Source: Minisyncoccota bacterium (GTDB lineage Bacteria; Patescibacteriota; Minisyncoccia; Minisyncoccales; JAZKSW01). Taken from it: 24,229 nt of DNA. The notes beneath the pieces were generated by a model. It was not told the origin of the DNA and ran no database searches. It saw only the letters and a list, made by a program, of their open reading frames with translations. The stretch lies in the NCBI GenBank assembly GCA_036625875.1, contig JAZKSW010000005.1, positions 1 to 24,229 on the forward strand. Direction: 5' to 3'. Shown in pieces: positions 3,420 through 21,050 of this stretch. How positions within the stretch are numbered: the stretch's first letter is position 1; each line of letters starts with the position of its first letter. The position numbers and the translations under genes were made by a program.

Positions 3420-4538
3420 TTAAGTAGACTTAATAGGCATTATTACGTACAAATAACTCTCATCTCCATCCGGTCTCAAGGTAGCTGCACCCTCTCCCCC
3501 ATTCATCTCAAAGATTACTTGATCCGTATTAATATTAGAGAGTCCATCTCTCACAAAGCGCCAATTAAATGAAGCTTCGGAATCTTCTCCTTCTACTTCA
3601 GCTGAAACTACTGATTTATTCTTTCCTAAATTAGGATCCTCAGAAGATATTTCTAATCCTTTATCCGAAGTTTTACATTTAACTTCATTAACTTTTCCTC
3701 CGAATAGGCTAGCTGCTTTAATTTGATTCAAGAATTTTTCGCGAGGTAATTTCAATCGAGTTTGGTGATCATCAGGAATTATTTTTTCATAGTCAGGATA
3801 GTCGCCTTCAACTAATTTGGAAGTAATTTGAAATTCCGGCTGAGTCTTTTCCGGCGACTCTGTTTTGAACATTATTTGGTTCTCGGAAATAAAAACTTTT
3901 AATTCCCTTTGTTGGTCTTTAAAAATATTCATCAACTCTCTTGCTGTTTTGCTGGGCAAAATTAAACATCTTGTTGAATCCAAAGTAGTATCGGATAAAG
4001 AAACAGTTTTTTCTCCCAATCTGAAACTGTCAGTAGCTACCATTTTTATTTCTTTTTTATTAAAGCAAATATAAACACCGGAAATTTCTGGTCTTACTTT
4101 ACTGGGAGAAGCAATGTCTTCTACTTGAGAAAGTCCTTCCATTAAAACAGAACTTTTTATTTCGGCGAATTCATCTTCTAGTTCCGGAATAATGGGAAAT
4201 TCTTTAGGATCCAATCCTTTTAATTGGCTTTCGTAATTTCCACATTTAATCTTTAAATCTTGTTTCTTTTGTTTTAATTGTATTTCCTCTTCCGGTAAGG
4301 AATTAATTAAATTAGAAAAGGCTTTAGCTGGTATAGCTACCTTTCCTTGATCTTTTATTTTAGCAAGTACTTCATATTTTATTCCTAATTCCAGATCGGT
4401 AGCAGCTAATTCTAAATGATTCTTTTTGGTGGTTAAAAGTACACTATCCAGAACAGGTAAAGAGGAACTTTTAGAAGCCACCTTTTTTATTTTATCCAGA
4501 CCTTGTTTTAAATTTTGTTTTAAAATTTTTAATTTCAT
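3420..4538 (-). CDS. dnaN: DNA polymerase III beta sliding clamp
   Basis: 372 aa. N-terminus MKLKILKQNLKQGLDKIKKVASKSSSLPVLDSVLLTTKKNHLELAATDLELGIKYEV is typical of DnaN domain I. Located directly downstream of dnaA. Confidence 0.9.
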   Translation of the reverse strand: MKLKILKQNLKQGLDKIKKVASKSSSLPVLDSVLLTTKKNHLELAATDLELGIKYEVLAKIKDQGKVAIPAKAFSNLINSLPEEEIQLKQKKQDLKIKCGNYESQLKGLDPKEFPIIPELEDEFAEIKSSVLMEGLSQVEDIASPSKVRPEISGVYICFNKKEIKMVATDSFRLGEKTVSLSDTTLDSTRCLILPSKTARELMNIFKDQQRELKVFISENQIMFKTESPEKTQPEFQITSKLVEGDYPDYEKIIPDDHQTRLKLPREKFLNQIKAASLFGGKVNEVKCKTSDKGLEISSEDPNLGKNKSVVSAEVEGEDSEASFNWRFVRDGLSNINTDQVIFEMNGGEGAATLRPDGDESYLYVIMPIKST

Positions 4539-4685: not shown

Positions 4686-6026
4686 TTAGTTGTTTTGAAT
4701 CTTCTGATTGATAAGGTCAATCTCCTCAGATAATCCATCTTCTTTACCCAACTTTTCTTCAATTTTTTCACAGGCATAAATTACCGTTGTGTGATCCCTA
4801 CCTCCAAATCTGTCTCCAATAGAAGGATAAGAATTGTCCAATTTTTCCCTTAACAAATACATTGCTACTTGTCTTGGCTTCACTACTTCTCTCTTACGTG
4901 AAGAAGAGGATAATTTTTCTTCATCTATTCCATAAAAATCAGCTACGGTTTCAACGATTTGTTCCGGATTAATTGGTTTTTTAGAAGAATAGGTGAAGTT
5001 TTTAAGAAGGGATTTAGCAACTTCTAAGTCAGGCGTTTCATTGTTAAGTTTTTTATATGCTACTAATTTATTCAAAGCTCCTTCTAACTCTCTGATGTTG
5101 TCTTTCACATTGGAAGCAATATAATCCAAGATCTTATCCGGGATTGTAATTTCCCCCTCCTTCATTTTTAGTTCCAGAATAGCCATCCTGGTTTCATAAT
5201 CAGGTAAGCTAATATCCGTAATCATACCGCCCTCAAAACGAGACCTAAGACGGTCTTTTAATGAAGAAATTGCTTTGGGGGGACGGTCCGAGGATAAAAC
5301 TATTTGGTTATCCTTTTCGTAAAGGACGTTGAAAATATGAAAGAACTCCTCTTGTGTTTTTTCTTTTCCTGATAAAAATTGAATATCATCAATTATTAAG
5401 GTATCGACATCCTTGAAGTTAGATTTAAACTCTTGGATCTTTTGGTTTTTGATTGAAGATACTACACCGGACGTGAATTTTTCTGCAGAAATGTATTTTA
5501 TTTTCTTATCTTCAAAATCTTCTCCGACTCTGTTTCCTATTGCTTGTAATAAATGGGTTTTTCCCAAACCAACTCCTCCGTAAATGAAAAGGGGATTATA
5601 AACGGAACCTGGTTCTTTTGCTACTGCCCACGCGCCCGCATGCGATAATTCATTAAAAGAACCCACCACAAAATTTTCAAAAGTATAGCGAGGATTTAAG
5701 TTGGTTTCTTTATCTAAATCAAAATCATCAAACTTCAATTGTTCTTCTTTAACGCTAGGGTTAGAGGCTTGACTTGTTTCTGAAGAATCTACCTTGTAGT
5801 CTACATCTTTAATATCAGGATCAAGATTGTGTAGTATTTTTAATATCTTTTTATGATATTTGTTTTCTAGCCACTCCTTAGTAAAATTATTAGGTACAGA
5901 TACCGTTAATTGGTCATCTTCTCTAGAAGATATTTTCGTTTTCTTGAACCAAGTAGCAAAGTTAGCTGGAGAAGTATTAAACTGGATTTGGGCTAACACT
6001 GCTTCCCACAATTCCTCTTTATTCAT
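4686..6026 (-). CDS. dnaA: Chromosomal replication initiator DnaA
   Basis: 446 aa. N-terminus MNKEELWEAVLAQIQFNTSPANFATWFKK (DnaA domain I). AAA+ Walker A NPLFIYGGVGLGKTHLLQAIGN. Walker B LIIDDIQFLSGKEKTQEEFFHIFN. C-terminal DNA-binding helix-turn-helix VAMYLLRE...S...IGDRFGGRDHTTVIYACEKI. Confidence 0.95.
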   Translation of the reverse strand: MNKEELWEAVLAQIQFNTSPANFATWFKKTKISSREDDQLTVSVPNNFTKEWLENKYHKKILKILHNLDPDIKDVDYKVDSSETSQASNPSVKEEQLKFDDFDLDKETNLNPRYTFENFVVGSFNELSHAGAWAVAKEPGSVYNPLFIYGGVGLGKTHLLQAIGNRVGEDFEDKKIKYISAEKFTSGVVSSIKNQKIQEFKSNFKDVDTLIIDDIQFLSGKEKTQEEFFHIFNVLYEKDNQIVLSSDRPPKAISSLKDRLRSRFEGGMITDISLPDYETRMAILELKMKEGEITIPDKILDYIASNVKDNIRELEGALNKLVAYKKLNNETPDLEVAKSLLKNFTYSSKKPINPEQIVETVADFYGIDEEKLSSSSRKREVVKPRQVAMYLLREKLDNSYPSIGDRFGGRDHTTVIYACEKIEEKLGKEDGLSEEIDLINQKIQNN

Positions 6027-8181: not shown

Positions 8182-9657
8182 TTAATTTGATTGCCGAAGA
8201 GGAATAATTCCTATACTTCCTATTTCATCATCTTCGGGATAGGTTATGACATTGTGACCTGTTAAATTCGGGTCGCTATTTTTAATTACTTTGCATTGTT
8301 CTTCAAAGGTGAAGGGGTCTATAAAGCTAGTTCCGCCGAACTTATCTTTACCCAACACTACCATAAAACTGCCTTGTATTTCTATAGATAGTATTCTATC
8401 TACAGCCTTATCTTCATCGGGATCATCGGGATCATCATGCACCTTTACGCCTAAATCACCACTTTTAATTGGGTAGTCAATTTCTTCACTCCAGAAGCGT
8501 CTGTCATGCTTATCTTCTATTGTGCTGGCATCTATTGTGAAAAAATCCCCTTCGTGACCTATTTCTTCGTAAAAAGTGACTTTCCCTTTTTTTATTTTTG
8601 ATAACCTAAGTGCAAACGGTGTGATAGATTCTGCTTCTTTGGCACCGAAATCGGACTGACTTGTTAAATCAACTGTTCGGTTTGTGCAAAAGGACATAGT
8701 ACTTCTTCCTCCACCTATACCAGGCGGGCTTCCAGCTGTTGGATCCTGGGGCATAACTCCTTTTACTGTACACTTACCTTTGTAATCGGTTTTGCCATGA
8801 AGTACTGCTCCGTAAGCAATTTCAGGAACCAGAAGGCCATCTTTGTTTTTACATTTCCCGGCACTCTTAAAAACTATTCCCCCAACCTCATTCTTATAAC
8901 CTCCCAAATCATCTTCTTTGCTAAGATAGTGTTGGTAAGGCTCTCCTGGAAAGGCAGCCATAGTACATTTATCAAAAGGATCTGAAGAGTCGTAACCCGA
9001 TTTGGGAGGATTTTTATAAAGATACACCCCCGGTTTGTTATCTTCCAGATAAAATGATTTTAATCCGCTAACACTCTCTTTCTTACCATCTTCTTCCGGA
9101 TCAGTTTTATAGTTACCTTTATAACTACAGCTTCCCTCGTATTTCTTGGAATCAAACCAAAAAGCTCCTTCAATTGCGTCTCTGATGCTCTGAAATTGCA
9201 ACTCCTCTGCCTCAAACCCTTCGGGCAGAGCCTCTTGGCTGTCACTAAAACAACATCTTGTAGAAGAACCGTTTTCGTTCTCTCCGTACAAGCAAATTCC
9301 CTGACTGGGAGTTCCGGGATCCATAGTATTTCTTAACAGTTGTGGATTGATTGTTTGTAGAAGTAAATACGACCCCAGTAAGATAACAATTGCTATTACG
9401 GCTCCCGTTATGTAGCTTTTGGCATCATCAATTCTGCTTCGATTACCTCCTGAAATTAAATACATGAAACCTCCGAACACCAAAGCGCCGAAGACTAATA
9501 AACCTCCGAGCCATAAGGACCACGTGAAAATCTTAGCGATAAGAGAAGATAAGCCACTGCCTCTTCCCAGGATCACACAATTTGCCCCTGTAACTATTGA
9601 AGGGGTAATTAAGGTGATAGTTACCAAGAAGACAATTGTTTTTTTAGTTATTCTCAT
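8182..9657 (-). CDS. Secreted/membrane protein: an N-terminal VirB2/TrbC-like (Patescibacteria 'T4SS pilin'-type) domain fused to a ~380-aa extracellular domain with scattered Cys
   Basis: 491 aa. Signal peptide MRITKKTIVFLVTITLITPSIVTGANC. Two TM segments flank GGFMYLISGGNRSRIDDAKSYITGAVIAIVILLGSYLLLQTINPQL, the GG.Y..SGG.....AK....TINPQL pilin-type pattern, and the upstream ORF shares it. The stop lies 4 nt from the jag stop, with the two genes convergent. Confidence 0.6.
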   Translation of the reverse strand: MRITKKTIVFLVTITLITPSIVTGANCVILGRGSGLSSLIAKIFTWSLWLGGLLVFGALVFGGFMYLISGGNRSRIDDAKSYITGAVIAIVILLGSYLLLQTINPQLLRNTMDPGTPSQGICLYGENENGSSTRCCFSDSQEALPEGFEAEELQFQSIRDAIEGAFWFDSKKYEGSCSYKGNYKTDPEEDGKKESVSGLKSFYLEDNKPGVYLYKNPPKSGYDSSDPFDKCTMAAFPGEPYQHYLSKEDDLGGYKNEVGGIVFKSAGKCKNKDGLLVPEIAYGAVLHGKTDYKGKCTVKGVMPQDPTAGSPPGIGGGRSTMSFCTNRTVDLTSQSDFGAKEAESITPFALRLSKIKKGKVTFYEEIGHEGDFFTIDASTIEDKHDRRFWSEEIDYPIKSGDLGVKVHDDPDDPDEDKAVDRILSIEIQGSFMVVLGKDKFGGTSFIDPFTFEEQCKVIKNSDPNLTGHNVITYPEDDEIGSIGIIPLRQSN

Positions 9658-9662
9658 AGATA

Positions 9663-12257
9663 TTATTCACGAATTAATTCTACACAGAAGAAATTATTCA
9701 TGCCTCCGTTTCTCCCTAAATTCTTAATAGCGTTTTGGCATTTATCACTTTGTTTGTTTGTTAAGCAGGCTTCTTTTTGCTCGTTGGTTAAATCCTTGTG
9801 GCTATAAGGATAACAACTGTTTTGCACATTGGGTAAACTTGGCAAGGAAAACTCGGGAGGATAACAATTATTGTAGTTGGTGATGGGGAAATTAGGTTGA
9901 ATGTCCAGTTGCCCTAATTTTAACAAATCAAGGCCCAAACTACAACTGAGTATACCTTGAAGGTTCATATTTTTTTCAGCCACTCCCCCAAAACCTGTTA
10001 AGCATCCTTTCATTTTATCTCTGCTTTGAGATAGCATAGTTATTAATTCGTGACGGTCAGGATCATCTTTTTTGAGGTCTTTTACTTTTATCAAATCAAC
10101 AATACGATTGAAAGAATTTTTAATTGTTTCTTCAGCTTCTACTACTGTATTTGTCTGATCCTTAATTGCATCCATTAAACAAGGGTTTTCAATTTTGCAT
10201 TTACACTCACAAATATCCGGTCCTGGGTCACAACAGTAGCAATTTTCTCCATCGCTGTCACAACACATCTCACAACATGCACCTTGCCCAACTACATCAC
10301 AATAAGCTTCAGAGTGGTAAGCTCCCCAGTAATCATCCGGATTATTCTGACATCTACAACTTAATGGGAGTACGTAAAGCACAGAAAGATCTCCTTGAGG
10401 CTCATCCTCTAAGTCTCCTGCCGGATCTTCTGGATTGAATAAAGCATTAGTAGCCTTTTCTATTCTATTATTAATATCTTTTAATTTGTTTAAATTTATT
10501 TGGGCGAGTTTTTCTGCATCGTCCGTAGCATCTCCAATGGGGATTAAGCCTCGCGGGTATCTGCTGTCCGGTTCGGGATCTAAAGTGGCTTTTCCCAGCA
10601 AGGGGGCGATAGAACTAGGCACTTTTTCCGAATTAGGATCCGGACAGTAAAAGGTAGCCGGGTCACCGTCTTTTTTCTCACAGGTCTGTTCCGGTTTATC
10701 ACCTTCTTTTTCGTCCTCTATTTTGCATAAAGTACAAGTGGCATCGGTAGTAGTACAAGATGAACTACCGGTTTCATTATTTAATAAATACTCTGAAGGT
10801 TTGCAGGTTTTTATTTCTCTTTTCCCTACGGTTGACGTAGCACAATCTCCCTTTTCAAGTGTATCTAAATCACAATCATAGCAAGGTAGTTTACCTTCAT
10901 CGGTAGTAGTGCAATTTTTAGCATTAAATTCTTTACAGTATTTAGTAGTTTCCACTTTGTTTTCTTCAGAACAGCTGTTTCCCCAAGAAGTTCCGCTTTC
11001 ACAGAAATCTTTTTTCTGCCATTCAGCGGGTCTTTCTTTTTTAGAGAAATAATAATTTGCCTGAGAAATTACAGTTTGGTAAGGACAATCATTTTTAAGA
11101 AAATTTTCTGCTCTTCTAAGATAAGTTAAGTCTTTTTCTAAGTCCTTTTCCAGAGGCTTTAAAAAGTTAACCATTAAAAAACGAACTTGGTCCGCTACCA
11201 ACAGTGGTTCTCCTTCACCGGAGTGATCGTCCGGGTTAATTACAGCTCTTTCGTTAAACTGTTTGGTAGTTAAGTCCTTAAGTTTATCATCGGTGTAATT
11301 CCGCCTAATTTTCTTTCTGTATTCGTCAATTTTATCTCTAAAACCATCACAAGGGTCTCCGTCTTCATAAGGGTCTCCTATGCAACTTTCCAGAGGTTCA
11401 CAGGTGCCCTGCTTGCATGATTTACTATCACAGGTTCCGTCTATGCACTCTCCTTCCACGTTGCAGTATTCAGTAGAACAATCACTTGTTAAATTTTTGA
11501 TTTTTTCAGCCCACTCTCTTAATTTTTCCATTTTCTTGTTCACGGGTTCTTCGAATTTGGTCAGGCAGTCCATTCGGTCATGTTCGGTCATGGGGTCAAT
11601 TTGTTCCGTGTCGGGATTAGCGTCTTTAAAAACAAGTAGTTCATCTTCTTCTATAAAATCATAACAATACCCTTGACGGGCGTCTTTTTGATTGACTAAA
11701 GTATCTACCTCCTTACCATCTTGACAGTCCACCATCGTCTCGTACTTCTCTCCTTTCCGGTAGCAATCTATTTCTTTCGCTAATATTTTTTCGGTTAGAG
11801 TTCCAATGGGAATTTCTTGAAAAGTAGTTGTGGCTTTTACAGTAGAAGGAGGATCGGGTTTAATTGGTGGAGTGGTAGTGGGGCTATCCACGTCAAAAGG
11901 AGTTTCTACTAGTTGGGGGTTAATAGTGGTTAATATTAAGACAGAAGTCAGTAGTAACAGAAGGCCTAAGAAAGCATGACGGGCCGTGTTTTTTGCATTT
12001 TGAATTCTCGTAGCGTTACCTCCCGAAGTTAAATACAAAATTCCTCCATAGATTAAGACTCCGGTTACTATTATAACACCTACGAACAATCCCAAACTAA
12101 AAAGGTAAGTTAAGAGTCCCGTAATACCGGCTCCCGGTTCAGGCTCCTTTACACCCGGAAGGTTGGGATAGTCTACAGCTTGCGCTAAATTAAAAAACCC
12201 TAACCCCAAAGAGATTAAGGTAAGAAGTAATAAAGTTTTATATTGTTTTTTATTCAT
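9663..12257 (-). CDS. Giant cysteine-rich surface protein: an N-terminal VirB2/TrbC-like pilin domain fused to a ~750-aa disulfide-rich ectodomain. Paralog of the downstream gene
   Basis: 864 aa. Signal peptide MNKKQYKTLLLLTLISLGLGFFNLAQA. Pilin-type segment LFVGVIIVTGVLIYGGILYLTSGGNATRIQNAKNTARHAFLGLLLLLTSVLILTTINPQL. The rest is extremely Cys-rich (CxxC/CC/CxC clusters, e.g. CCEMCCDSDGENCYCCDPGPDICECKCK) with D/E/K/T-rich linkers. Confidence 0.6.
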   Translation of the reverse strand: MNKKQYKTLLLLTLISLGLGFFNLAQAVDYPNLPGVKEPEPGAGITGLLTYLFSLGLFVGVIIVTGVLIYGGILYLTSGGNATRIQNAKNTARHAFLGLLLLLTSVLILTTINPQLVETPFDVDSPTTTPPIKPDPPSTVKATTTFQEIPIGTLTEKILAKEIDCYRKGEKYETMVDCQDGKEVDTLVNQKDARQGYCYDFIEEDELLVFKDANPDTEQIDPMTEHDRMDCLTKFEEPVNKKMEKLREWAEKIKNLTSDCSTEYCNVEGECIDGTCDSKSCKQGTCEPLESCIGDPYEDGDPCDGFRDKIDEYRKKIRRNYTDDKLKDLTTKQFNERAVINPDDHSGEGEPLLVADQVRFLMVNFLKPLEKDLEKDLTYLRRAENFLKNDCPYQTVISQANYYFSKKERPAEWQKKDFCESGTSWGNSCSEENKVETTKYCKEFNAKNCTTTDEGKLPCYDCDLDTLEKGDCATSTVGKREIKTCKPSEYLLNNETGSSSCTTTDATCTLCKIEDEKEGDKPEQTCEKKDGDPATFYCPDPNSEKVPSSIAPLLGKATLDPEPDSRYPRGLIPIGDATDDAEKLAQINLNKLKDINNRIEKATNALFNPEDPAGDLEDEPQGDLSVLYVLPLSCRCQNNPDDYWGAYHSEAYCDVVGQGACCEMCCDSDGENCYCCDPGPDICECKCKIENPCLMDAIKDQTNTVVEAEETIKNSFNRIVDLIKVKDLKKDDPDRHELITMLSQSRDKMKGCLTGFGGVAEKNMNLQGILSCSLGLDLLKLGQLDIQPNFPITNYNNCYPPEFSLPSLPNVQNSCYPYSHKDLTNEQKEACLTNKQSDKCQNAIKNLGRNGGMNNFFCVELIRE

Positions 12258-12258
12258 A

Positions 12259-12564
12259 TTAATCCTGAAGTATCTCCATTATTACGAGAATGGTCCAAAA
12301 TGGTGCAATGTCACCAAGGGCGGGAATTAATTCCCCTCCGGTAAAGCCCATCAGTTTCTTAGCACTGGTTCCACCGAACCCCATACCATCTCCCCTGACA
12401 AAGTAAAGCCAGGATCCTAGAAAGACACCTCCTAACAAATCGGGAATGAAAGAAATGCCGAAGCCTATTCCTACAAAGTCTAGTACTAAACAAGCCAGAC
12501 CTATTAAGTCCAATATCGCAGCCAAAAAGAACATCATAGTGGAACCCGGGCTAGGAAAGCTCAT
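12259..12564 (-). CDS. Small glycine-rich integral membrane protein (hypothetical; possibly a divergent pilin/VirB2-like subunit)
   Basis: 101 aa with two hydrophobic helices (FFLAAILDLIGLACLVLDFVGIGFGISFI ; IAPFWTILVIMEIL) and a G-rich loop GFGGTSAKKLMGFTGG. Tightly packed between virB4 (3-nt gap) and the 864-aa gene (1-nt gap). Confidence 0.45.
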   Translation of the reverse strand: MSFPSPGSTMMFFLAAILDLIGLACLVLDFVGIGFGISFIPDLLGGVFLGSWLYFVRGDGMGFGGTSAKKLMGFTGGELIPALGDIAPFWTILVIMEILQD

Positions 12565-12567
12565 ATT

Positions 12568-14409
12568 TTAAAATTCTCCTTGTTCTAACCTACTTTGATT
12601 TTTAGAAGATTGTTGTCCTAACTCTTTTTTGGACTCTTTAATCTTCTTAACTTCTTCCGGAGAGGTGGTAATTATTTGCTCCTCGGCATAAGAAGCTACT
12701 ACTCTTAAGCCAACGTGCTTAGGCCCTGCAAAAAACAACCCTTCTCCTACCGGAGCTTCTAATAGCATTGTTTTTTCTGCTTCAGTTAAATTAAAGGCAT
12801 CTTGAACTGCTTCGGCTCCTGAAGGTGATTGTTTCATTAATAATTGGAGAGAAGAGTTGGTAATAATAGGTTTTCCATAGTCCGACTTCATGAAATCAAT
12901 CACATCTTGAGTAATAGTGGTAACTCCAAGCCAATATTTTCTGCCTCTTTTAGCTGTGCCGAATAGGAAGGAGGCTCCATCTTCGTTCTTCATCATCCAC
13001 CATGCTTCGTCTACCACTAAAATTCTTTTCTTGAGTTCAGCTCTAATAGTGTTCCAAATGTAGCGCATAATCATGAACATGGCCATCGGCCTTAATTCAT
13101 CTTCCATGTCTCTAATACCGAAGGTAACGAGATTATTATCCATTTCTACGTTGGTCGGATTATTGAAGAATTCAGAATAACTACCTTCGGTGAATTTTCT
13201 TAATCTCCTGACAAGTGATTCTGCTCCTTCCATCGTTTCCAAAACAGATTGAAAGTCTTCCATTAGAGGGGTTCTTTCGTCCCATAAAGAGGGGTCGGTT
13301 TCGGGAGTAATATCCCGAGCGCGATAAGTTTCGGTTAGAGCTTGATCTATAATTGCATCTTCCTCGGCATTAAGTCCGCCAAGCATTATTCTTAAAAGCC
13401 CTACTAAATTAATAATATTGCTTCTCAACACGTCTGACGGCCTTTCGTTTTCTCTCGGTGGAGGGAGGTCAAAAGGGTTAACATGGTTAGGGGAAGTCAA
13501 AGACATATTGTAATAAGAACCTCCTACTGCGTCCGACAGGAATTTATATTCGTTTTCGGGATCGATTATGATAACATCCGTTCCCATCATTAAGGATCTT
13601 AAAATTTCTAGCTTCTCGAAGAATGACTTTCCGGATCCGGCCTTACCGAAAACAACCGAGTTCGCGTTTTCTAAAGAAAAGCGGTCGAACAATACCAAAG
13701 AATTATTATGTTTGTTAACTCCGTAAAGAATTCCCTCATTGGAGCTTAGATCAAAGGAAATAAACGGAAAGGCACTGGATAACGGGGCAGTATTCATGGG
13801 GTTGGTTACTCCCAATTTATCAGTTCCGTAGGGAACGGAAGACAAAAAGCCCTTTTTCTGTTGAAATAAAGCTGGCTTAGGATAAATCATCCGGGATTCC
13901 AAAATAGATCTTAGCCGGGTTTCCGAACTGTTCAAATCTTCTTTGCTTTCTCCGTAAACGGTGATATAGAGTGAGAATTGAAACATCTTTTCCCTGGCGG
14001 TCTGTAATTTATCTCTCAATTCTTCCAGGTCTTGGTAGGCAGTTTCCAGTTCAGGACTTCTTACTAATCCTTTCTCTTCTCTTTCGGCAATTTCTGATTG
14101 AACCTCTGCTGTTCTTTTTCTCAACTTTTTAAGAATTTGTTCTGAATCTTCAGGATGAATAAACATTGAAACATCCATCGGGGTGTCCATGTTGATTACG
14201 GGAGACAACCAGCCCGTACTCAGATAACGGGGATAGGAAAATACGAAGAAAGATTTAACATATCTTTCTCCTAATTTAATATTATCCTCGCTGACTTTAA
14301 TCGAAGCCGGAGCGGCTATATCTTTAGCTCCAATGGGCCGAGTCTGGAAAACCTGCTCCGGTATTTTTTCTCCTCTATTGAGTAATTTGTCCAAAAAAGG
14401 AATCTTCAT
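12568..14409 (-). CDS. virB4: VirB4/TrbE-family T4SS ATPase, C-terminal ~3/4 (middle domain plus ATPase domain)
   Basis: 613 aa. Walker A VVFGKAGSGKSFFEK. Walker B RILVVDEAWWMM. The N-terminal part YVKSFFVFSYPRYLSTGWLSPVINMDTPMDVSMFIHP aligns to the VirB4 mid-region (YVGSIYSF.EYP....PGML..L.SLDFPLVLTQSFSFL in A. tumefaciens VirB4). The ATG overlaps the upstream ORF's TGA (ATGA). Confidence 0.85.
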   Translation of the reverse strand: MKIPFLDKLLNRGEKIPEQVFQTRPIGAKDIAAPASIKVSEDNIKLGERYVKSFFVFSYPRYLSTGWLSPVINMDTPMDVSMFIHPEDSEQILKKLRKRTAEVQSEIAEREEKGLVRSPELETAYQDLEELRDKLQTAREKMFQFSLYITVYGESKEDLNSSETRLRSILESRMIYPKPALFQQKKGFLSSVPYGTDKLGVTNPMNTAPLSSAFPFISFDLSSNEGILYGVNKHNNSLVLFDRFSLENANSVVFGKAGSGKSFFEKLEILRSLMMGTDVIIIDPENEYKFLSDAVGGSYYNMSLTSPNHVNPFDLPPPRENERPSDVLRSNIINLVGLLRIMLGGLNAEEDAIIDQALTETYRARDITPETDPSLWDERTPLMEDFQSVLETMEGAESLVRRLRKFTEGSYSEFFNNPTNVEMDNNLVTFGIRDMEDELRPMAMFMIMRYIWNTIRAELKKRILVVDEAWWMMKNEDGASFLFGTAKRGRKYWLGVTTITQDVIDFMKSDYGKPIITNSSLQLLMKQSPSGAEAVQDAFNLTEAEKTMLLEAPVGEGLFFAGPKHVGLRVVASYAEEQIITTSPEEVKKIKESKKELGQQSSKNQSRLEQGEF

Positions 14410-15077
14410 TGGTTAAAATTTGATTGAGTTACTCTTTGTTGTTGATTTTGTTGAGTTATCTCGGGAGGGATTTCCGGGTAATAACCTACCTCTGCTCTAC
14501 GTGGATGATGGATGCTCCAGAATAACTCTATTATTTCCGGAGTGGTGAGGGGTACGGCTTTTAAACTACACCTTCTCAACCCCAACGCTACGAATTCCAT
14601 TCTTTGCCACAGTTGCCTTTTTGCTCTTTGGAATTTTTGCTCCGTCATTTTATGTCTTTTTGGCATTTTTCCTCCCGACTTTCGTTGTGCTTCTCTCAAA
14701 GTGTAGGGTACAACTACAAAGAAATTCTTTGACATAATGGTGTTTTTTTGTACCGTTTTATCTATAAACTTACGGTAACTTTCGGTCTGTGTTTGTAGTA
14801 ATTCATTATCTTGTTCCTTTTGTAGTTGTTCTAATTTATCTAAATAACCGGTAATGTTAAGCTGTCTGGATTTAAGATAAATTTGCAGAGGAAAATCCAG
14901 AGAGTTCAGCATTTCTTGAAATTGATAGATAATCGATTTTTTCTGGTCCGAAGTCTTTAGAGCAAAATTTAAAGAATTAACCATTAAAATACCCCTTAAT
15001 GCTTTGTTTTTCAATATGACTACTCCTTCTCTGACTTGATCAAATTTTAGAAAGTCTTGAGTTGCAGCTTCAGGCAT
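14406..15077 (-). CDS. virB4: VirB4/TrbE N-terminal segment encoded as a separate, translationally coupled ORF (split virB4)
   Basis: 223 aa. VREGVVILKNKALRGILMVNSLNFALKTSDQKKSIIYQFQEMLNSLDFPLQIYLKSRQ follows the VirB4 N-terminal pattern (I.LL.DGS..I.RI.G..FEL........F..LL......V.IY.HL.R). It ends in a TGA that overlaps the ATG of the 613-aa ORF. Combined length is ~836 aa, typical for full-length VirB4. Confidence 0.6.
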   Translation of the reverse strand: MPEAATQDFLKFDQVREGVVILKNKALRGILMVNSLNFALKTSDQKKSIIYQFQEMLNSLDFPLQIYLKSRQLNITGYLDKLEQLQKEQDNELLQTQTESYRKFIDKTVQKNTIMSKNFFVVVPYTLREAQRKSGGKMPKRHKMTEQKFQRAKRQLWQRMEFVALGLRRCSLKAVPLTTPEIIELFWSIHHPRRAEVGYYPEIPPEITQQNQQQRVTQSNFNQ

Positions 15078-15145
15078 ATTTGTGAACGAGTGAGAAAATT
15101 AAATAATTGTTTATTTATATTTTTGAAACGAGGAAGCAAGCGAAC
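15078..15145 (-). promoter_or_regulatory. virB4 promoter/leader module, copy B of the duplicated ~55-nt leader element (inverted relative to copy A)
   Basis: The minus strand reads GGTTCGCTTGCTTCCTCGTTTCA-AAAATATAAATAAACAATTATTTA-ATTTTCTCACTCGTTCACAAAT-ATG. The core 15100-15122 is the exact reverse complement of 6278-6300. It sits in a 139-nt gap inside the otherwise overlapping operon, between prgI-like and virB4-N. Confidence 0.45.
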
Positions 15146-15216
15146 CAGCGGTCGCGTAGTGACTGCTACACGACAATTTTCAAGAATTCGAGCGGAGCGA
15201 GAAGTTCTTATAATTA

Positions 15217-15633
15217 TTACTTTTTACCTGTTTTAACCTTTGTTTCCATTTCTTTTAATCGACTTTTTTGAGTCATTCTTAAAGGAGATTGTTTAGTATC
15301 GGTTTGCTGTGGTTGCTTCTTTTCTCTTTTTTCAATAATTTTAGGAGTGCTTTGCTTCTTTTTCCATAAGTAAACTTTGGAAGAAAACAAGAACGAAACG
15401 GAATGGAGAATTATCTCTGGCAAAGATTTACCGCCGACAGTGATAAAAGCTAAAGCCATTGCCACTGCAAAAAGAAGAAGAGCGGAGAGCACAAAAGGGA
15501 TTAGAGAGACAGTAAAGTAAAGGACGGCGGAAATTAAACCGGCTACTCCGATATAGGTAAATTGCTTAAAGGTCATCGGGCCTATAATTTTAGGTTCTTT
15601 TTCTATAAATTTTGGGACGCGGTAACGAGCCAT
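15217..15633 (-). CDS. PrgI/TcpE-family (VirB3-like) T4SS membrane protein
   Basis: 138 aa. MARYRVPKFIEKEPKIIGPMTFKQFTYIGVAGLISAVLYFTVSLIPFVLSALLLFAVAMALAFITV matches the PrgI-family N-terminus (..VPKD...EDKIIG.LT.RQ..Y...G, followed by two TM helices). Sits upstream of virB4, as prgI precedes prgJ. Confidence 0.65.
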   Translation of the reverse strand: MARYRVPKFIEKEPKIIGPMTFKQFTYIGVAGLISAVLYFTVSLIPFVLSALLLFAVAMALAFITVGGKSLPEIILHSVSFLFSSKVYLWKKKQSTPKIIEKREKKQPQQTDTKQSPLRMTQKSRLKEMETKVKTGKK

Positions 15634-16052
15634 TACTCAATTGATTCTCTATATTTATCTTTAGATGCTTTATCTTGTTGATTGGTTTGTTCCGGCTCTT
15701 TTGCTCCTTGTGGTTTTTGAGTTGGTTTTATTTCCGTTCCGTACAAAGCTGATAAGGTATCTCGTATTGGCATGAGAATAAACCGGTTAATTTCACGATA
15801 GATACTTCTAACTTGCTTTGCACTGAGTTCCAAGTCTTCTTTCAAGGTTTGTTTAAATTCTTTAGGGGTAAGTAATCCCATCAACACCTGACCGGTATAT
15901 CTAGCTACCTCGGAGTTTTTATCTACTCCCGCTCTTTCACACGCCTGTTTAATACGTTCAGCGGTGTCAGGTGAAAAAATAGCCTCCTGAAGTTCTTCAG
16001 GTAGTTTTTCATATACATCCCATAATTCATCTTTGGAATATTTCTTAGCCAT
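15633..16052 (-). CDS. Hypothetical soluble protein, first gene of the T4SS-like operon
   Basis: 139 aa, hydrophilic, no TM (MAKKYSKDELWDVYEKLPEELQEAIFSPDTAERIKQACERAGVDK...). Its stop overlaps the prgI-like start (TAATG). I recognise no family. Confidence 0.45.
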   Translation of the reverse strand: MAKKYSKDELWDVYEKLPEELQEAIFSPDTAERIKQACERAGVDKNSEVARYTGQVLMGLLTPKEFKQTLKEDLELSAKQVRSIYREINRFILMPIRDTLSALYGTEIKPTQKPQGAKEPEQTNQQDKASKDKYRESIE

Positions 16053-16151: not shown

Positions 16152-16226
16152 ATGGATAACAATAGAAAGTTATTCTCTATTGGATATATTCTTTGGTCTT
16201 TGACATTTATATAAGGAGTGATAAAA

Positions 16227-17801
16227 ATGTCTCCCTCTCAAGAAGAACAGTTTTTTACGTTTCTATTGGTGTTGAGTGTTATTGTTTTGTCAATTATGTG
16301 GTTATTCCAAGCACCGACTGCTTGGGAGTTACGATTTGGCTGGTGGTCAGTGCTGGCCTTGATAGTTGGAATTTCTAGTGTTTTGATACTAGCCATGAAT
16401 ACGGCTTGGAAACACCTTGCAATTGTTCTCGTAGCTGCCGGTGTATTTTTCGGGGTTTATCTTCTGCCCTTCTGGCTACAAATTTGCCTGATGATAGTAG
16501 GAGGTTCTGTAAGTTTATTCTTTTCCGTTTATTACGGATTAGCCGAAAACAACAGATGGTTTACCAAACTCGAAGAAGGACAAGCTAAATTCGTAATGAA
16601 AGCGGGTCGATACGTAAAGACTTTATTCCAATGGGAAGGACATACTTTAGATGACGAAGGAAACGTAGTGCCCCTAGGAAAATACACGAGAAACGGAAAA
16701 GTAATAGAAGAGTTCGAAGAGCTAGAAGATGATATGCCAATTGAGGCGAAATATCTTGCCGAAATGGATCGCTTTAGCTTTTCAAGGGCTAAAAAATTTA
16801 GGGAACGCATAGAAAATCAAGGTATAGACAACTTGGAAGATTTAAGGGAAGCAGCCAGTGAAGGAAGACTTGCCGAAGAAGTTAAAGGAATAGGAGAAGT
16901 AACGCAGGATGAAATTCATAGGATAATTGAGTCAAAGAGAGGTACTTATTATGAACCTTCCCTAAAGGCGGTTACTAAGCAAGGCAAAGAGGCAGATACT
17001 TCTTCTAAGGCGGACAAAGTAATTACTACCTATGACGAAGTAGCAAACCCTGCCGGTAGTGATGATATTTTCCGGCAAGACAATAGAGACTTTTATCGTG
17101 GAGGTGGACTTAGATTTTTCAGTCCCTATTACCCTCTGTATGAAGTGAATACTTACAAGTTTTCTTGGGCGGCTCTTAGTCAAGACGGAGAAGTGAAGAT
17201 ACACAAAAATGAAGAACTTGATTACATATTAGTACAACCTGATTTATATTATTTCCAAGTGACGGATGCAGAGGATGAAGATCTTTTACCTCTAGGTGCT
17301 GAAGTGACCGTGAGAATTAGAGTTGTCAATCCCAAAAAGGCAATGCTAGTTCCCGAAAATTGGCTTGAAATGGTGATTAATTTAATTCGTCCAGCAATAA
17401 GAAATTCTTTGAGCTCCGAGAAATACAAAAATCTTACTGGTCAATACGAAGATCTCAGTGAAGACATTTTCGCTACGATTGTCAGTAGTGGGTTAATAGA
17501 CCAGCTTGAGGAAGACTACGGCGTACAAGTAGAAAGACTGGACATAAAAAATCTTGATCCACCGGAAGATTTGAGAGAAGCTACTTTGAAGGAAGCTATA
17601 GCCGGCTATGAGGCAGATGCAGCAAAAACAAGAGCGAAAGGAGAGGCTGAAGCGAAGAAGATAAAGTACGAAGCGATTAAAGAATACGAGCCCATTTCAT
17701 TGACCGTAGAAGGAATAGAAGCAGCAAAAGAATCAAATCCATACGTTATCACTCAAGGTTTACCGGGACTTGTTGATGCTATGAAATCCCTTAAAAATTA
17801 A
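16227..17801 (+). CDS. Polytopic membrane protein with a C-terminal SPFH/band-7 (HflK/C/flotillin-like) domain and a helix-hairpin-helix-like motif
   Basis: I prefer the ATG at 16227 (8 nt after AAGGAG) over the track's GTG at 16218. About 4 N-terminal TM helices. The SPFH pattern GAEVTVRIRVVNPKKAML...MVINLIRPAIRNSL...DYGVQVERLDIKNLDPPEDLREATLKEAIAGYEADAAKTRAKGEAEAKKI resembles V.V..RV.DP.KA / G..V..V.I.DI.PP.E....M.....AER...A...AEGE. A possible HhH lies at IENQGIDNLEDLREAASEGRLAEEVKGIGEVTQDEIHRII. Confidence 0.68.
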   Translation: MSPSQEEQFFTFLLVLSVIVLSIMWLFQAPTAWELRFGWWSVLALIVGISSVLILAMNTAWKHLAIVLVAAGVFFGVYLLPFWLQICLMIVGGSVSLFFSVYYGLAENNRWFTKLEEGQAKFVMKAGRYVKTLFQWEGHTLDDEGNVVPLGKYTRNGKVIEEFEELEDDMPIEAKYLAEMDRFSFSRAKKFRERIENQGIDNLEDLREAASEGRLAEEVKGIGEVTQDEIHRIIESKRGTYYEPSLKAVTKQGKEADTSSKADKVITTYDEVANPAGSDDIFRQDNRDFYRGGGLRFFSPYYPLYEVNTYKFSWAALSQDGEVKIHKNEELDYILVQPDLYYFQVTDAEDEDLLPLGAEVTVRIRVVNPKKAMLVPENWLEMVINLIRPAIRNSLSSEKYKNLTGQYEDLSEDIFATIVSSGLIDQLEEDYGVQVERLDIKNLDPPEDLREATLKEAIAGYEADAAKTRAKGEAEAKKIKYEAIKEYEPISLTVEGIEAAKESNPYVITQGLPGLVDAMKSLKN

Positions 17802-20213: not shown

Positions 20214-21050
20214 TTAGGAGGACAATTTAATAAATTGCTTAGTTAGTTTTATCCATTCGTCATTGGTTAAAGTTTCTGCTCTTCTGCCCGGTTCAATGTT
20301 GCTTTTTTTAAGTATTTGCTTTAATCCATTTTTGTTAAAGCTTAATTCTAATTCTAAGCTGTTAATCAGTTTCTTACGGGAGTGAGCGAATCCTCCTTTC
20401 ATTACCTTGAAGAATGCTTGGTTGAAATTTTCTTTTCTGTATTTATGGTTTAAAGGTAAAATATCGGTGATTTTCAGAATAGAAGAATTAACTTTCGGTT
20501 CAGGAAAGAATTCCTGCTTGGAAATACTGCCTGCTATTTCAGGATTACTGTAAAATTGGATGGCAGAGGCTACTACGGTCATTTCCGGAGGATTGGTAGT
20601 TATTTTCTCCGCTACTTCCTCTTGGACGGTCACCGCCATTAAGTTAGGAGTTGATTCTTCCAGGATTTTTCTAATAATAGCAGTAGCGGCATTAAAGGGT
20701 AGGGAGCTTACTACCTTGTAATTTTTAAAGTGGGAAAGGTCTAACTCTAAAAAATCTTCATTAATCACCTCTACATTATTTAAATCACAAGTCTGGTTTA
20801 GAATTTTTACCAGGCGTGAGTCGCGCTCCACTGCTGTTACCTGTTTTACTTTTTCTGCTAATTCCTTGGTTATGGTTCCTAAACCGGGCCCTACTTCCAA
20901 TACGTGATCGTTCTTTCTCAAGTCAGCAGTACCCAAAAGTTTGTTTAGAGCTACTTTTGAGGTTAAAAAATTCTGTCCTTGGTTCTTGTCGGCTCTGATG
21001 TTGTGTTGGGCCAGTAGTTCTTTAATTTTTGCTTCTGAAAGTAAATTCAT
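20214..21050 (-). CDS. rsmA: 16S rRNA (adenine1518-N6/adenine1519-N6)-dimethyltransferase RsmA/KsgA
   Basis: 278 aa. GQNFLTSKVALNKLLGTADLRKNDHVLEVGPGLGTITKELAE is the KsgA signature (GQNFL...., SAM-binding LE.GPG.G.lT). Confidence 0.9.
   Translation of the reverse strand: MNLLSEAKIKELLAQHNIRADKNQGQNFLTSKVALNKLLGTADLRKNDHVLEVGPGLGTITKELAEKVKQVTAVERDSRLVKILNQTCDLNNVEVINEDFLELDLSHFKNYKVVSSLPFNAATAIIRKILEESTPNLMAVTVQEEVAEKITTNPPEMTVVASAIQFYSNPEIAGSISKQEFFPEPKVNSSILKITDILPLNHKYRKENFNQAFFKVMKGGFAHSRKKLINSLELELSFNKNGLKQILKKSNIEPGRRAETLTNDEWIKLTKQFIKLSS

What the first reader, a model, noticed from the sequence alone, without database searches (positions are those of the whole stretch)
12568..15077. 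VirB4 ATPase encoded as two translationally coupled ORFs (223 aa N-terminal piece + 613 aa) with an ATGA overlap
The 223-aa ORF matches the extreme N-terminal region of VirB4/TrbE. The 613-aa ORF begins with VirB4 mid-region homology and carries the Walker A/B ATPase domain. Together they are ~836 aa, a normal full-length VirB4. The junction is a clean stop/start overlap (ATGA with a proper ATG) rather than a mid-codon frameshift. This is therefore either a natural split of VirB4 into two polypeptides or a recent nonsense/indel event; a split would matter for how the N-terminal membrane-association domain works.
Basis: partly seen in the sequence, partly recalled or inferred. Interest (0 to 1): 0.55.

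Follow-up and report, generated by a model that had tools for sequence, protein, structure and literature searches.

The report
Two-gene VirB4 ATPase: known TrsD-like split
The secretion-machine ATPase VirB4 really is encoded here as two adjacent genes, but this is an old, conserved arrangement (a TrsD-like protein plus a short VirB4) already reported across Patescibacteria and in staphylococcal conjugative plasmids, not a recent mutation or sequencing error.

Summary
On the minus strand, a 223-aa ORF (14406-15077) and a 613-aa ORF (12568-14409) share an ATGA stop/start overlap.

The split is not recent:
- The 223-aa protein has thousands of stand-alone homologues of about 210 aa in Patescibacteria.
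- In 82 of 83 related loci its gene ends in a stop and the short virB4 follows.
- Junctions range from 4-nt overlaps to gaps holding unrelated genes, and all three relative frames occur.

The 223-aa protein is homologous to TrsD/TraD of Staphylococcus plasmid pSK41 (hhalign 93.5%), and TrsE there starts at the same VirB4 position. A 2025 paper (PMC12102498) already names TrsD as the most abundant type IV secretion (T4SS) component of Patescibacteria, usually next to virB4, and essential in one cultured species.

Verdict: real, natural and already known. Translational coupling is plausible at this locus but is not a conserved requirement. Physical assembly of the two polypeptides is inferred, not shown.

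The parts
14406..15077 (-). N piece: 223-aa TrsD-like protein, equivalent to roughly the first 180-200 residues (first half of the N-terminal domain) of a full-length VirB4
12568..14409 (-). C piece: 613-aa short VirB4 ATPase (TrsE-like), comprising the second half of the N-terminal domain plus the P-loop C-terminal domain
   Evidence: Pfam P-loop_TraG E 3e-27, CagE_TrbE_VirB positions 63-196/204, TraC_F_IV positions 251-373/375. NCBIfam CD1110 VirB4: 375 bits, positions 180-733/752. PDB 4ag5 VirB4 CTD E 3e-49; TrwK residues 284-734 align to query 104-547. PrgJ residue 222 aligns to query 26. TrsE residue 36 aligns to query 30.
14406..14409 (-). ATGA stop/start overlap between the two genes
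   Evidence: The same -4 overlap is found in 9 of the 82 related loci that hold both genes.
13624..13647 (-). Walker A motif GKAGSGKS (C-piece residues 255-262)
   Evidence: coordinates computed from the ORF start at 14409.
13006..13023 (-). Walker B motif ILVVDE (C-piece residues 463-468)
15217..15633 (-). PrgI/VirB3-like small membrane protein (138 aa), the likely membrane anchor for the N piece
   Evidence: Pfam PrgI, 32.3 bits against a cutoff of 27. Hydrophobic stretch at residues 25-72. The same gene lies directly upstream of the N piece in L001, L085 and L086.
15633..16052 (-). Conserved 139-aa protein of unknown function, first gene of the block
   Evidence: ORF; no Pfam family above its cutoff. 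A gene of 139-148 aa sits in the same position in L001, L085 and L086.
12259..12564 (-). 101-aa hydrophobic protein directly after virB4, a possible VirB2-like pilin
   Evidence: Hydrophobic segments; no Pfam hit. In L001 the gene at this position is a 126-aa T4SS_pilin protein.
9663..12257 (-). 864-aa protein with a pilin-like N-terminus and a large Cys-rich extension
   Evidence: Pfam T4SS_pilin at residues 48-111, 20.6 bits, below the 26.6-bit cutoff.
8182..9657 (-). 491-aa protein with a pilin-like N-terminus
   Evidence: Pfam T4SS_pilin at residues 35-94, 25.8 bits, just below the 26.6-bit cutoff.

Best explanation
This is the chromosomal type IV secretion locus of a Patescibacteria (Paceibacterota) genome, and its VirB4 ATPase is naturally made as two polypeptides. 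The 223-aa TrsD-like protein supplies the first half of the VirB4 N-terminal domain. The 613-aa protein supplies the rest of that domain plus the Walker A/B ATPase domain. By inference from full-length VirB4 (TrwK of R388), the two are expected to associate non-covalently into a VirB4-like subunit. The N piece would provide the surface that the PrgI/VirB3-like membrane protein, encoded just upstream, wraps around, docking the soluble ATPase on the membrane. At this locus the ATGA overlap and the lack of a Shine-Dalgarno-like sequence suggest that termination-reinitiation coupling keeps the two parts near 1:1. Shown here: complementarity of the two pieces, the fold of the N piece, conservation of the split, and homology to TrsD. 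Inferred: physical assembly, VirB3 docking and translational coupling.
For: Complementarity. On NCBIfam CD1110 VirB4 the N piece covers positions 2-119 and the C piece 180-733. On the Mbov_0397 VirB4 model they cover 103-234 and 293-890. C-piece residue 26 aligns to PrgJ residue 222 of 796, and residues 104-547 align to TrwK 284-734. The TrwK N-terminal domain is residues 15-400, and VirB3 wraps around it (PMC9259494).

Conservation. There are 3749 homologues, the best 120 all 208-223 aa. There are 1754 clusters at 50% identity, and the top 150 are all stand-alone proteins of 112-443 aa, none of VirB4 length. In 82 of 83 loci the N gene ends in a stop and the C gene follows. Junctions are -4 (9 loci), -1 (1), -41 (1), 0-30 nt (54), 31-150 nt (13) and >150 nt (4). 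Relative frames are 17/35/30.

Link to the known system. hhalign of the N-piece profile against a TrsD/TraD alignment gives 93.5%, E 2.3e-7, over 164 colinear columns. TrsD homologues carry the same precomputed Pfam family, PF26593. pSK41 has the same gene order, a small upstream ORF in the VirB3 position, then trsD (227 aa), then trsE (672 aa), and TrsE starts at the same VirB4 position. PMC12102498 reports 2272 TrsD homologues in Patescibacteria, 1664 of them next to virB4, one essential in Ca. S. epibionticum, and a location near dnaA. The window likewise has dnaA, dnaN and ksgA nearby.
Against: No experiment or complex model shows that the two polypeptides bind each other; a multimer prediction could not be run with these tools. 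Sequence similarity of the N piece to VirB4 N-termini is remote: E 1e-8 and 0.0026 against NCBIfam profiles, and hhalign against the single PrgJ sequence was not significant. The N piece did not reach NCBIfam's TrsD model at E <= 1. The local Pfam scan did not list PF26593, although precomputed annotations do. Coupling cannot be a general requirement, because relatives have long gaps or inserted genes between the two genes.
Confidence: 0.85

Rival explanations
1. The split is a recent nonsense or indel mutation, or an assembly error, in an otherwise single virB4 gene, making it a pseudogene or an artefact.
For: Only the geometry supports this. A 4-nt overlap between two ORFs that together equal one VirB4 is what a frameshifting indel could also produce.
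Against: 82 of 83 related loci from independent assemblies have the same stop followed by a separate C gene, with many junction types and all three relative frames. The nearest relatives (89% and 81% identity) are also split. Stand-alone homologues extend down to about 30% identity. The C frame is closed by TAA just upstream of its ATG.
Confidence: 0.01
2. A single fused VirB4 is made from the two ORFs by programmed ribosomal frameshifting or stop-codon readthrough at the junction.
For: An A-AAT-TTT stretch lies 7 nt upstream of the N-piece stop in the window (sequence). In 17 of the 82 related loci that hold both genes, the two genes are in the same frame.
Against: In the window, a -1 shift on that stretch runs straight into the TAA that closes the C frame. 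Relative frames 0, +1 and +2 all occur, gaps reach 1675 nt, and unrelated genes sit between the two ORFs in four loci. No single recoding mechanism fits all of these.
Confidence: 0.02
3. The 223-aa protein is an independent accessory factor that merely descends from a VirB4 N-terminal domain. It might act as an assembly chaperone, regulator or adaptor, with its own stoichiometry, rather than as a structural stand-in for the missing part of VirB4.
Against: The C piece lacks exactly the segment the N piece resembles; this is complementarity, not duplication. The two genes are adjacent in 82 of 83 loci. The top structural match covers 171 residues of TrwK itself.
Confidence: 0.12

Closest known systems
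TrsD + VirB4 of the Patescibacteria (CPR) chromosomal T4SS, as described in Microb Genom 2025;11:001409 (PMC12102498)
   Same: The gene set and order match: PrgI/VirB3-like, TrsD-like, VirB4, then pilin-like genes. The chromosomal position near dnaA, dnaN and ksgA also matches. NCBI assigns the exact protein to a Candidatus Paceibacterota MAG. This locus is an instance of that system.
   Different: Nothing substantive differs. The paper describes TrsD as remotely homologous to the VirB4 N-terminus with no assigned function. In the parts read here, it does not spell out that the accompanying VirB4 lacks that region; that is what the profile coordinates here show.
TrsD/TraD + TrsE/TraE of Staphylococcus plasmids pSK41/pGO1 (the pGO1 subclass of MPF-FATA)
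   Same: A ~225-aa protein is encoded directly upstream of a short VirB4 (672 aa), with a small ORF in the VirB3 position before it. TrsE begins at the same VirB4 position as the window's C piece (CD1110 profile start 183 versus 180). The N piece and TrsD are homologous by profile-profile comparison (93.5%) and share Pfam PF26593.
   Different: Pairwise similarity of the N piece to TrsD is not detectable by BLASTP. The N piece does not reach NCBIfam's TrsD model. The pSK41 system is a plasmid conjugation apparatus with a relaxase and a coupling protein; this one is chromosomal, and most such clusters in Patescibacteria lack a relaxase according to PMC12102498. Whether the two splits share one origin is unresolved.
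Full-length monoderm VirB4 (PrgJ of pCF10, CD1110 family) and diderm VirB4 (TrwK of R388)
   Same: The C piece aligns over the ATPase domain and the second half of the N-terminal domain. The N-piece model superposes on TrwK. A PrgI/VirB3-like gene lies upstream, as in pCF10.
   Different: Those proteins are single polypeptides of about 800 aa; here the first ~180-200 residues are a separate gene product.

Membership tests
VirB4/TrbE/CagE T4SS ATPase (C piece) | P-loop ATPase domain with Walker A and Walker B motifs | tested here: met
   GKAGSGKS at residue 255 and ILVVDE at residue 463. Pfam P-loop_TraG E 3.2e-27. PDB 4ag5 VirB4 C-terminal domain E 2.8e-49.
VirB4/TrbE/CagE T4SS ATPase (C piece) | Score above a curated family cutoff | tested here: met
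   NCBIfam NF045971 (VirB4-like, CD1110 family): 375.1 bits against a cutoff of 325. Pfam CagE_TrbE_VirB: 26.2 bits against 21.
VirB4/TrbE/CagE T4SS ATPase (C piece) | Complete N-terminal domain within the same polypeptide | tested here: not met
   The match starts at profile position 180/752 (CD1110), 293/894 (Mbov_0397), PrgJ residue 222 and about TrwK residue 180. The missing part is supplied by the upstream ORF.
TrsD/TraD family (N piece) | Stand-alone ~210-230-aa protein encoded directly upstream of a short virB4, downstream of the virB3-like gene | tested here: met
TrsD/TraD family (N piece) | Sequence homology to bona fide TrsD | tested here: met
   hhalign of A1 against the TrsD alignment A3: probability 93.5%, E 2.3e-7, 164 columns. 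Both carry precomputed Pfam PF26593. BLASTP alone is not significant.
TrsD/TraD family (N piece) | Reaches NCBIfam NF041427 (TrsD subfamily, cutoff 200 bits) | tested here: not met
   The family was not listed at E <= 1 for the window protein, whereas pSK41 TrsD scores 227.6 bits. The window protein lies outside that narrow staphylococcal subfamily, so 'TrsD-like' is the accurate label.
TrsD/TraD family (N piece) | Fold of the VirB4 N-terminal domain | tested here: met
   [not shown]
Patescibacteria MPF-FATA-derived chromosomal T4SS (PMC12102498) | VirB4 with TrsD, PrgI/VirB3 and VirB2-like pilin genes nearby | tested here: met
   PrgI is above its cutoff, and TrsD-like and VirB4 are as above. 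The pilin-like N-termini are just below the Pfam cutoff, at 20.6 and 25.8 bits against 26.6, so the pilin part is only borderline.
Patescibacteria MPF-FATA-derived chromosomal T4SS (PMC12102498) | Chromosomal location near dnaA, dnaN and ksgA | tested here: met
   dnaA at 4686-6026, dnaN at 3420-4538, RrnaAD/ksgA at 20214-21050, compared with the paper's description.
Patescibacteria MPF-FATA-derived chromosomal T4SS (PMC12102498) | VirB4 falls in the monophyletic Patescibacteria VirB4 clade | not tested
   No phylogeny was built. Support is indirect: the exact protein comes from a Paceibacterota MAG, and all close homologues come from Patescibacteria MAGs.
Functional two-subunit VirB4 | N and C polypeptides physically assemble and bind the VirB3-like protein | not testable with these tools

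The most novel reading that the evidence does not exclude
The VirB4 gene may have been split independently, at the same boundary between subdomains, in Patescibacteria and in the pGO1/pSK41 plasmid lineage. Alternatively, the free N-terminal module may let the machine vary how many ATPase subunits are docked through VirB3. The evidence does not exclude either. The CPR N piece matches the N-termini of fused VirB4 models (Mbov_0397, E 1e-8) better than NCBIfam's TrsD model (no hit). The C piece is not clearly closer to TrsE than to PrgJ (152 versus 137 bits).
Probability: 0.2. Interest if true: 0.35.

Novelty: already known. Interest (0 to 1): 0.15.

Why it matters
The result settles an annotation question. 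Two-ORF virB4 loci in Patescibacteria genomes should not be flagged as frameshifted pseudogenes or assembly errors, and the upstream ~210-aa gene should be annotated as the TrsD-like N-terminal module of VirB4.

Biologically, it is a natural experiment. The first half of the VirB4 N-terminal domain, the part VirB3 wraps around in R388, can work as a separate polypeptide. That could help in dissecting VirB4 assembly in a T4SS reported to be essential for the epibiotic lifestyle. The arrangement itself is already in the literature, so the finding adds little that is new.

Tried and rejected
- **PDB sequence searches with the N piece.** Neither the single sequence nor the 55-sequence profile gave anything meaningful. 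Only fold comparison found VirB4.
- **BLASTP, N piece against pSK41 TrsD.** Not significant. Profile-profile comparison was needed.
- **hhalign, N-piece profile against the single PrgJ sequence.** Not significant: probability 0.2%, although the short aligned stretch is at a plausible position.
- **Local Pfam scan.** It did not return PF26593 for the N piece, although precomputed tables list it. The cause is unknown; the local Pfam copy may lack that model.
- **First genome-contig scan.** The 55-sequence alignment had no sufficiently conserved stretch. A narrower 15-sequence alignment worked.
- **Literature on the TrsD/TraD mechanism.** Searches for TrsD/TrsE and for pIP501 TraD/TraE found no functional or interaction data. 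In the pELF paper, TraD is a VirD4-type ATPase and unrelated. The main text of the 2014 CONJScan paper does not mention TrsD.
- **Frameshift-fusion hypothesis.** Examined and rejected.
- **PrgI-to-N-piece spacer.** A promoter/terminator scan of the 139-nt spacer showed nothing convincing.
Full report
**1.

On the minus strand, a 223-aa ORF (14406-15077) and a 613-aa ORF (12568-14409) both start with ATG and overlap by the four bases ATGA. The downstream frame is closed by a TAA two codons before its ATG, so no longer reading frame is hidden there. No Shine-Dalgarno-like sequence precedes the downstream ATG, whereas the next gene in the operon has AAGGAGA.

**2. What the two proteins are**

The 613-aa protein is a VirB4-type ATPase.
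- Pfam: P-loop_TraG (E 3e-27), AAA_10, the last third of TraC_F_IV, and positions 63-196 of 204 of CagE_TrbE_VirB.
- Motifs: Walker A GKAGSGKS at residue 255 and Walker B ILVVDE at residue 463.
- It passes the curated cutoff of NCBIfam's CD1110-family VirB4 model (375 against 325 bits), but only over profile positions 180-733 of 752.
- Its residue 26 aligns with residue 222 of the 796-aa PrgJ of pCF10.
- Its residues 104-547 align with TrwK residues 284-734.

It therefore lacks about the first 180-200 residues of a normal VirB4.

The 223-aa protein matches that missing part: positions 2-119 of the CD1110 model (E 0.0026) and positions 103-234 of the Mbov_0397 VirB4 model (E 1.1e-8). On the Mbov_0397 model the C piece continues at positions 293-890. 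The two ORFs are thus complementary and colinear, not duplicates.

**3. Fold of the N piece**

An AlphaFold2 model of the N piece was built on 55 diverse homologues (alignment A1). It is confident, with mean pLDDT 89.7 and pTM 0.79.
- The 14 best Foldseek matches in the PDB are all TrwK/VirB4 chains of the R388 secretion system (probability 0.92-1.0, TM 0.31-0.54 normalised to the query). Below them, probabilities fall under 0.25.

In R388, the VirB4 N-terminal domain spans residues 15-400. VirB3 wraps around it, and it mediates VirB4 dimerisation (PMC9259494). The split therefore falls inside that domain, between two subdomains.

Neither piece has a hydrophobic segment. The upstream PrgI/VirB3-like protein has one, at residues 25-72.

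**4. The split is old and conserved**

- The N piece has 3749 homologues at E <= 0.001. The best 120 are all 208-223 aa, from Patescibacteria metagenome-assembled genomes.
- An exhaustive search of cluster representatives found 1754 clusters at 50% identity. The best 150, down to about 30% identity, are all stand-alone proteins of 112-443 aa, and none has VirB4 length.
- A scan of species-representative genomes gave at least 587 loci. I analysed 83 loci by script: the 80 kept from that scan plus three fetched separately.
- In 82 of the 83, the N gene ends in a stop codon and the short virB4 lies downstream. The remaining locus is cut by the contig end.
- Junctions: a 4-nt overlap in 9 loci, a 1-nt overlap in 1, a 41-nt overlap by my start call in 1, gaps of 0-30 nt in 54, 31-150 nt in 13, and more than 150 nt in 4.
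- The second gene sits in relative frame 0, +1 or +2 in 17, 35 and 30 loci.
- In the four long gaps, unrelated genes are inserted: a methyltransferase-like plus a second ORF in L027, and small proteins in L052, L060 and L062.
- The closest relatives from other samples are also split. One (89% identity) has a 78-nt gap, and its virB4 carries an intein. The other (81% identity) has a 4-nt overlap.

This excludes a recent mutation or an assembly artefact. It also makes a frameshift- or readthrough-generated fusion untenable as a general mechanism. In the window itself, a -1 slip on the only slippery-looking stretch would run into the TAA.

**5. Relation to known systems**

Staphylococcus plasmid pSK41 has the same layout. 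Its trsD (227 aa) lies directly upstream of trsE (672 aa, VirB4-like), with a small ORF before trsD.
- TrsE aligns with the window's C piece from residue 36 to residue 30 (E 3e-43).
- TrsE starts at CD1110 profile position 183, against 180 for the window protein. The break point is the same.
- BLASTP of the N piece against TrsD is not significant.
- The N-piece profile against a 12-sequence TrsD/TraD alignment gives hhalign probability 93.5% and E 2.3e-7 over 164 colinear columns.
- Both groups carry the same precomputed Pfam family, PF26593 'TraC-like'.

The N piece does not reach NCBIfam's narrow TrsD model, so 'TrsD-like' is the right label.

**6. The arrangement is already published**

PMC12102498 (Microb Genom 2025) reports the following:
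[quoted passage not shown] There are 2272 homologues, 1664 of them associated with virB4, and one is essential in Ca. S. epibionticum.
- The patescibacterial VirB4 clade is nested in MPF-FATA.
- The cluster often lies near dnaA, dnaN and ksgA.

The window fits this description. It holds ruvB, dnaN, dnaA, yidC, two pilin-like giant proteins, a small hydrophobic protein, virB4, the trsD-like gene, a prgI-like gene, a conserved 139-aa gene, an SPFH protein, ksgA and an M23/LysM peptidase. NCBI labels the exact N-piece protein 'TraC family protein [Candidatus Paceibacterota bacterium]' on a 24229-base contig.

**7. Mechanism**

Shown here: the two polypeptides are complementary parts of VirB4, the N piece has the VirB4 N-domain fold, and the two-gene state is maintained across a very large clade.

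Inferred:
- The pieces assemble non-covalently into a VirB4-like subunit.
- The N piece is the docking surface for the PrgI/VirB3-like membrane protein, by analogy with R388.
- At this locus the ATGA overlap gives termination-reinitiation coupling and near-equal amounts of the two products.

Coupling is not conserved, because many relatives have gaps or inserted genes.

The main live rival, at about 0.12, is that the N piece acts as a separate accessory factor rather than as a structural stand-in. It also remains open whether the Patescibacteria and pGO1-type splits are one event or two. The N piece hits fused VirB4 N-termini better than the NCBIfam TrsD model. The C piece is not clearly closer to TrsE than to PrgJ.

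**8. Verdict**

The feature is real, natural and already known. Interest is low. The practical value is for annotation: these loci are not pseudogenes. A minor addition is that the accompanying VirB4 lacks precisely the region that TrsD resembles.

Noticed in passing
L001:6661-10437 and L085:4736-8572 (relatives); absent from window 12568-14409: In two relatives, including the closest one (89% identical N piece), the short VirB4 is about 1260-1280 aa because it carries an intein with a LAGLIDADG endonuclease (Pfam Intein_splicing, LAGLIDADG_3). The window's copy has no intein.
   Followed up: no
L027:5663-7339, L052:5642-6105, L060:2135-2811, L062:5660-6134: In four related loci, unrelated genes sit between the TrsD-like gene and virB4. 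L027 has a 356-aa protein with an NPPF methyltransferase-like motif plus a 193-aa ORF. L052 and L062 have near-identical ~120-aa proteins. L060 has a 147-aa protein, and its gap also contains 100 N bases.
   Followed up: partly
window 9663-12257 (-) and 8182-9657 (-): Two large proteins (864 and 491 aa) have N-termini that resemble the T4SS pilin family just below Pfam's cutoff. The 864-aa protein continues into a very Cys-rich, Asp/Glu-rich extension. Pilin-like anchors fused to large extracellular domains may be adhesins or effectors of this secretion system.
   Followed up: no
window 15078-15216 (-): A 139-nt non-coding spacer separates the PrgI-like gene from the TrsD-like gene. In L001, L085 and L086 these two genes abut or overlap (a 2-nt gap, a 1-nt overlap and a 2-nt gap). 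A promoter/terminator scan showed nothing convincing.
   Followed up: partly
window 15633-16052 (-): A 139-aa protein with no family assignment opens the gene block and overlaps the PrgI-like gene by one base (TAATG). A gene of 139-148 aa sits at the same position in L001, L085 and L086, so it is probably a conserved, uncharacterised component of this secretion system.
   Followed up: no
[not shown]
   Followed up: no
window 16218-17801 (+) and L085:1501-2628: A 527-aa protein with an SPFH/Band 7 domain is encoded divergently next to the secretion genes. A Band_7-like gene (faint hit) lies at a similar position in the closest relative.
   Followed up: no
window 14406-15077 (-): The local Pfam-A scan did not report PF26593 'TraC-like' for this protein, even at E <= 0.1. 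The precomputed tables list PF26593.2 for it and for all its homologues, which suggests the local library copy lacks that model.
   Followed up: no
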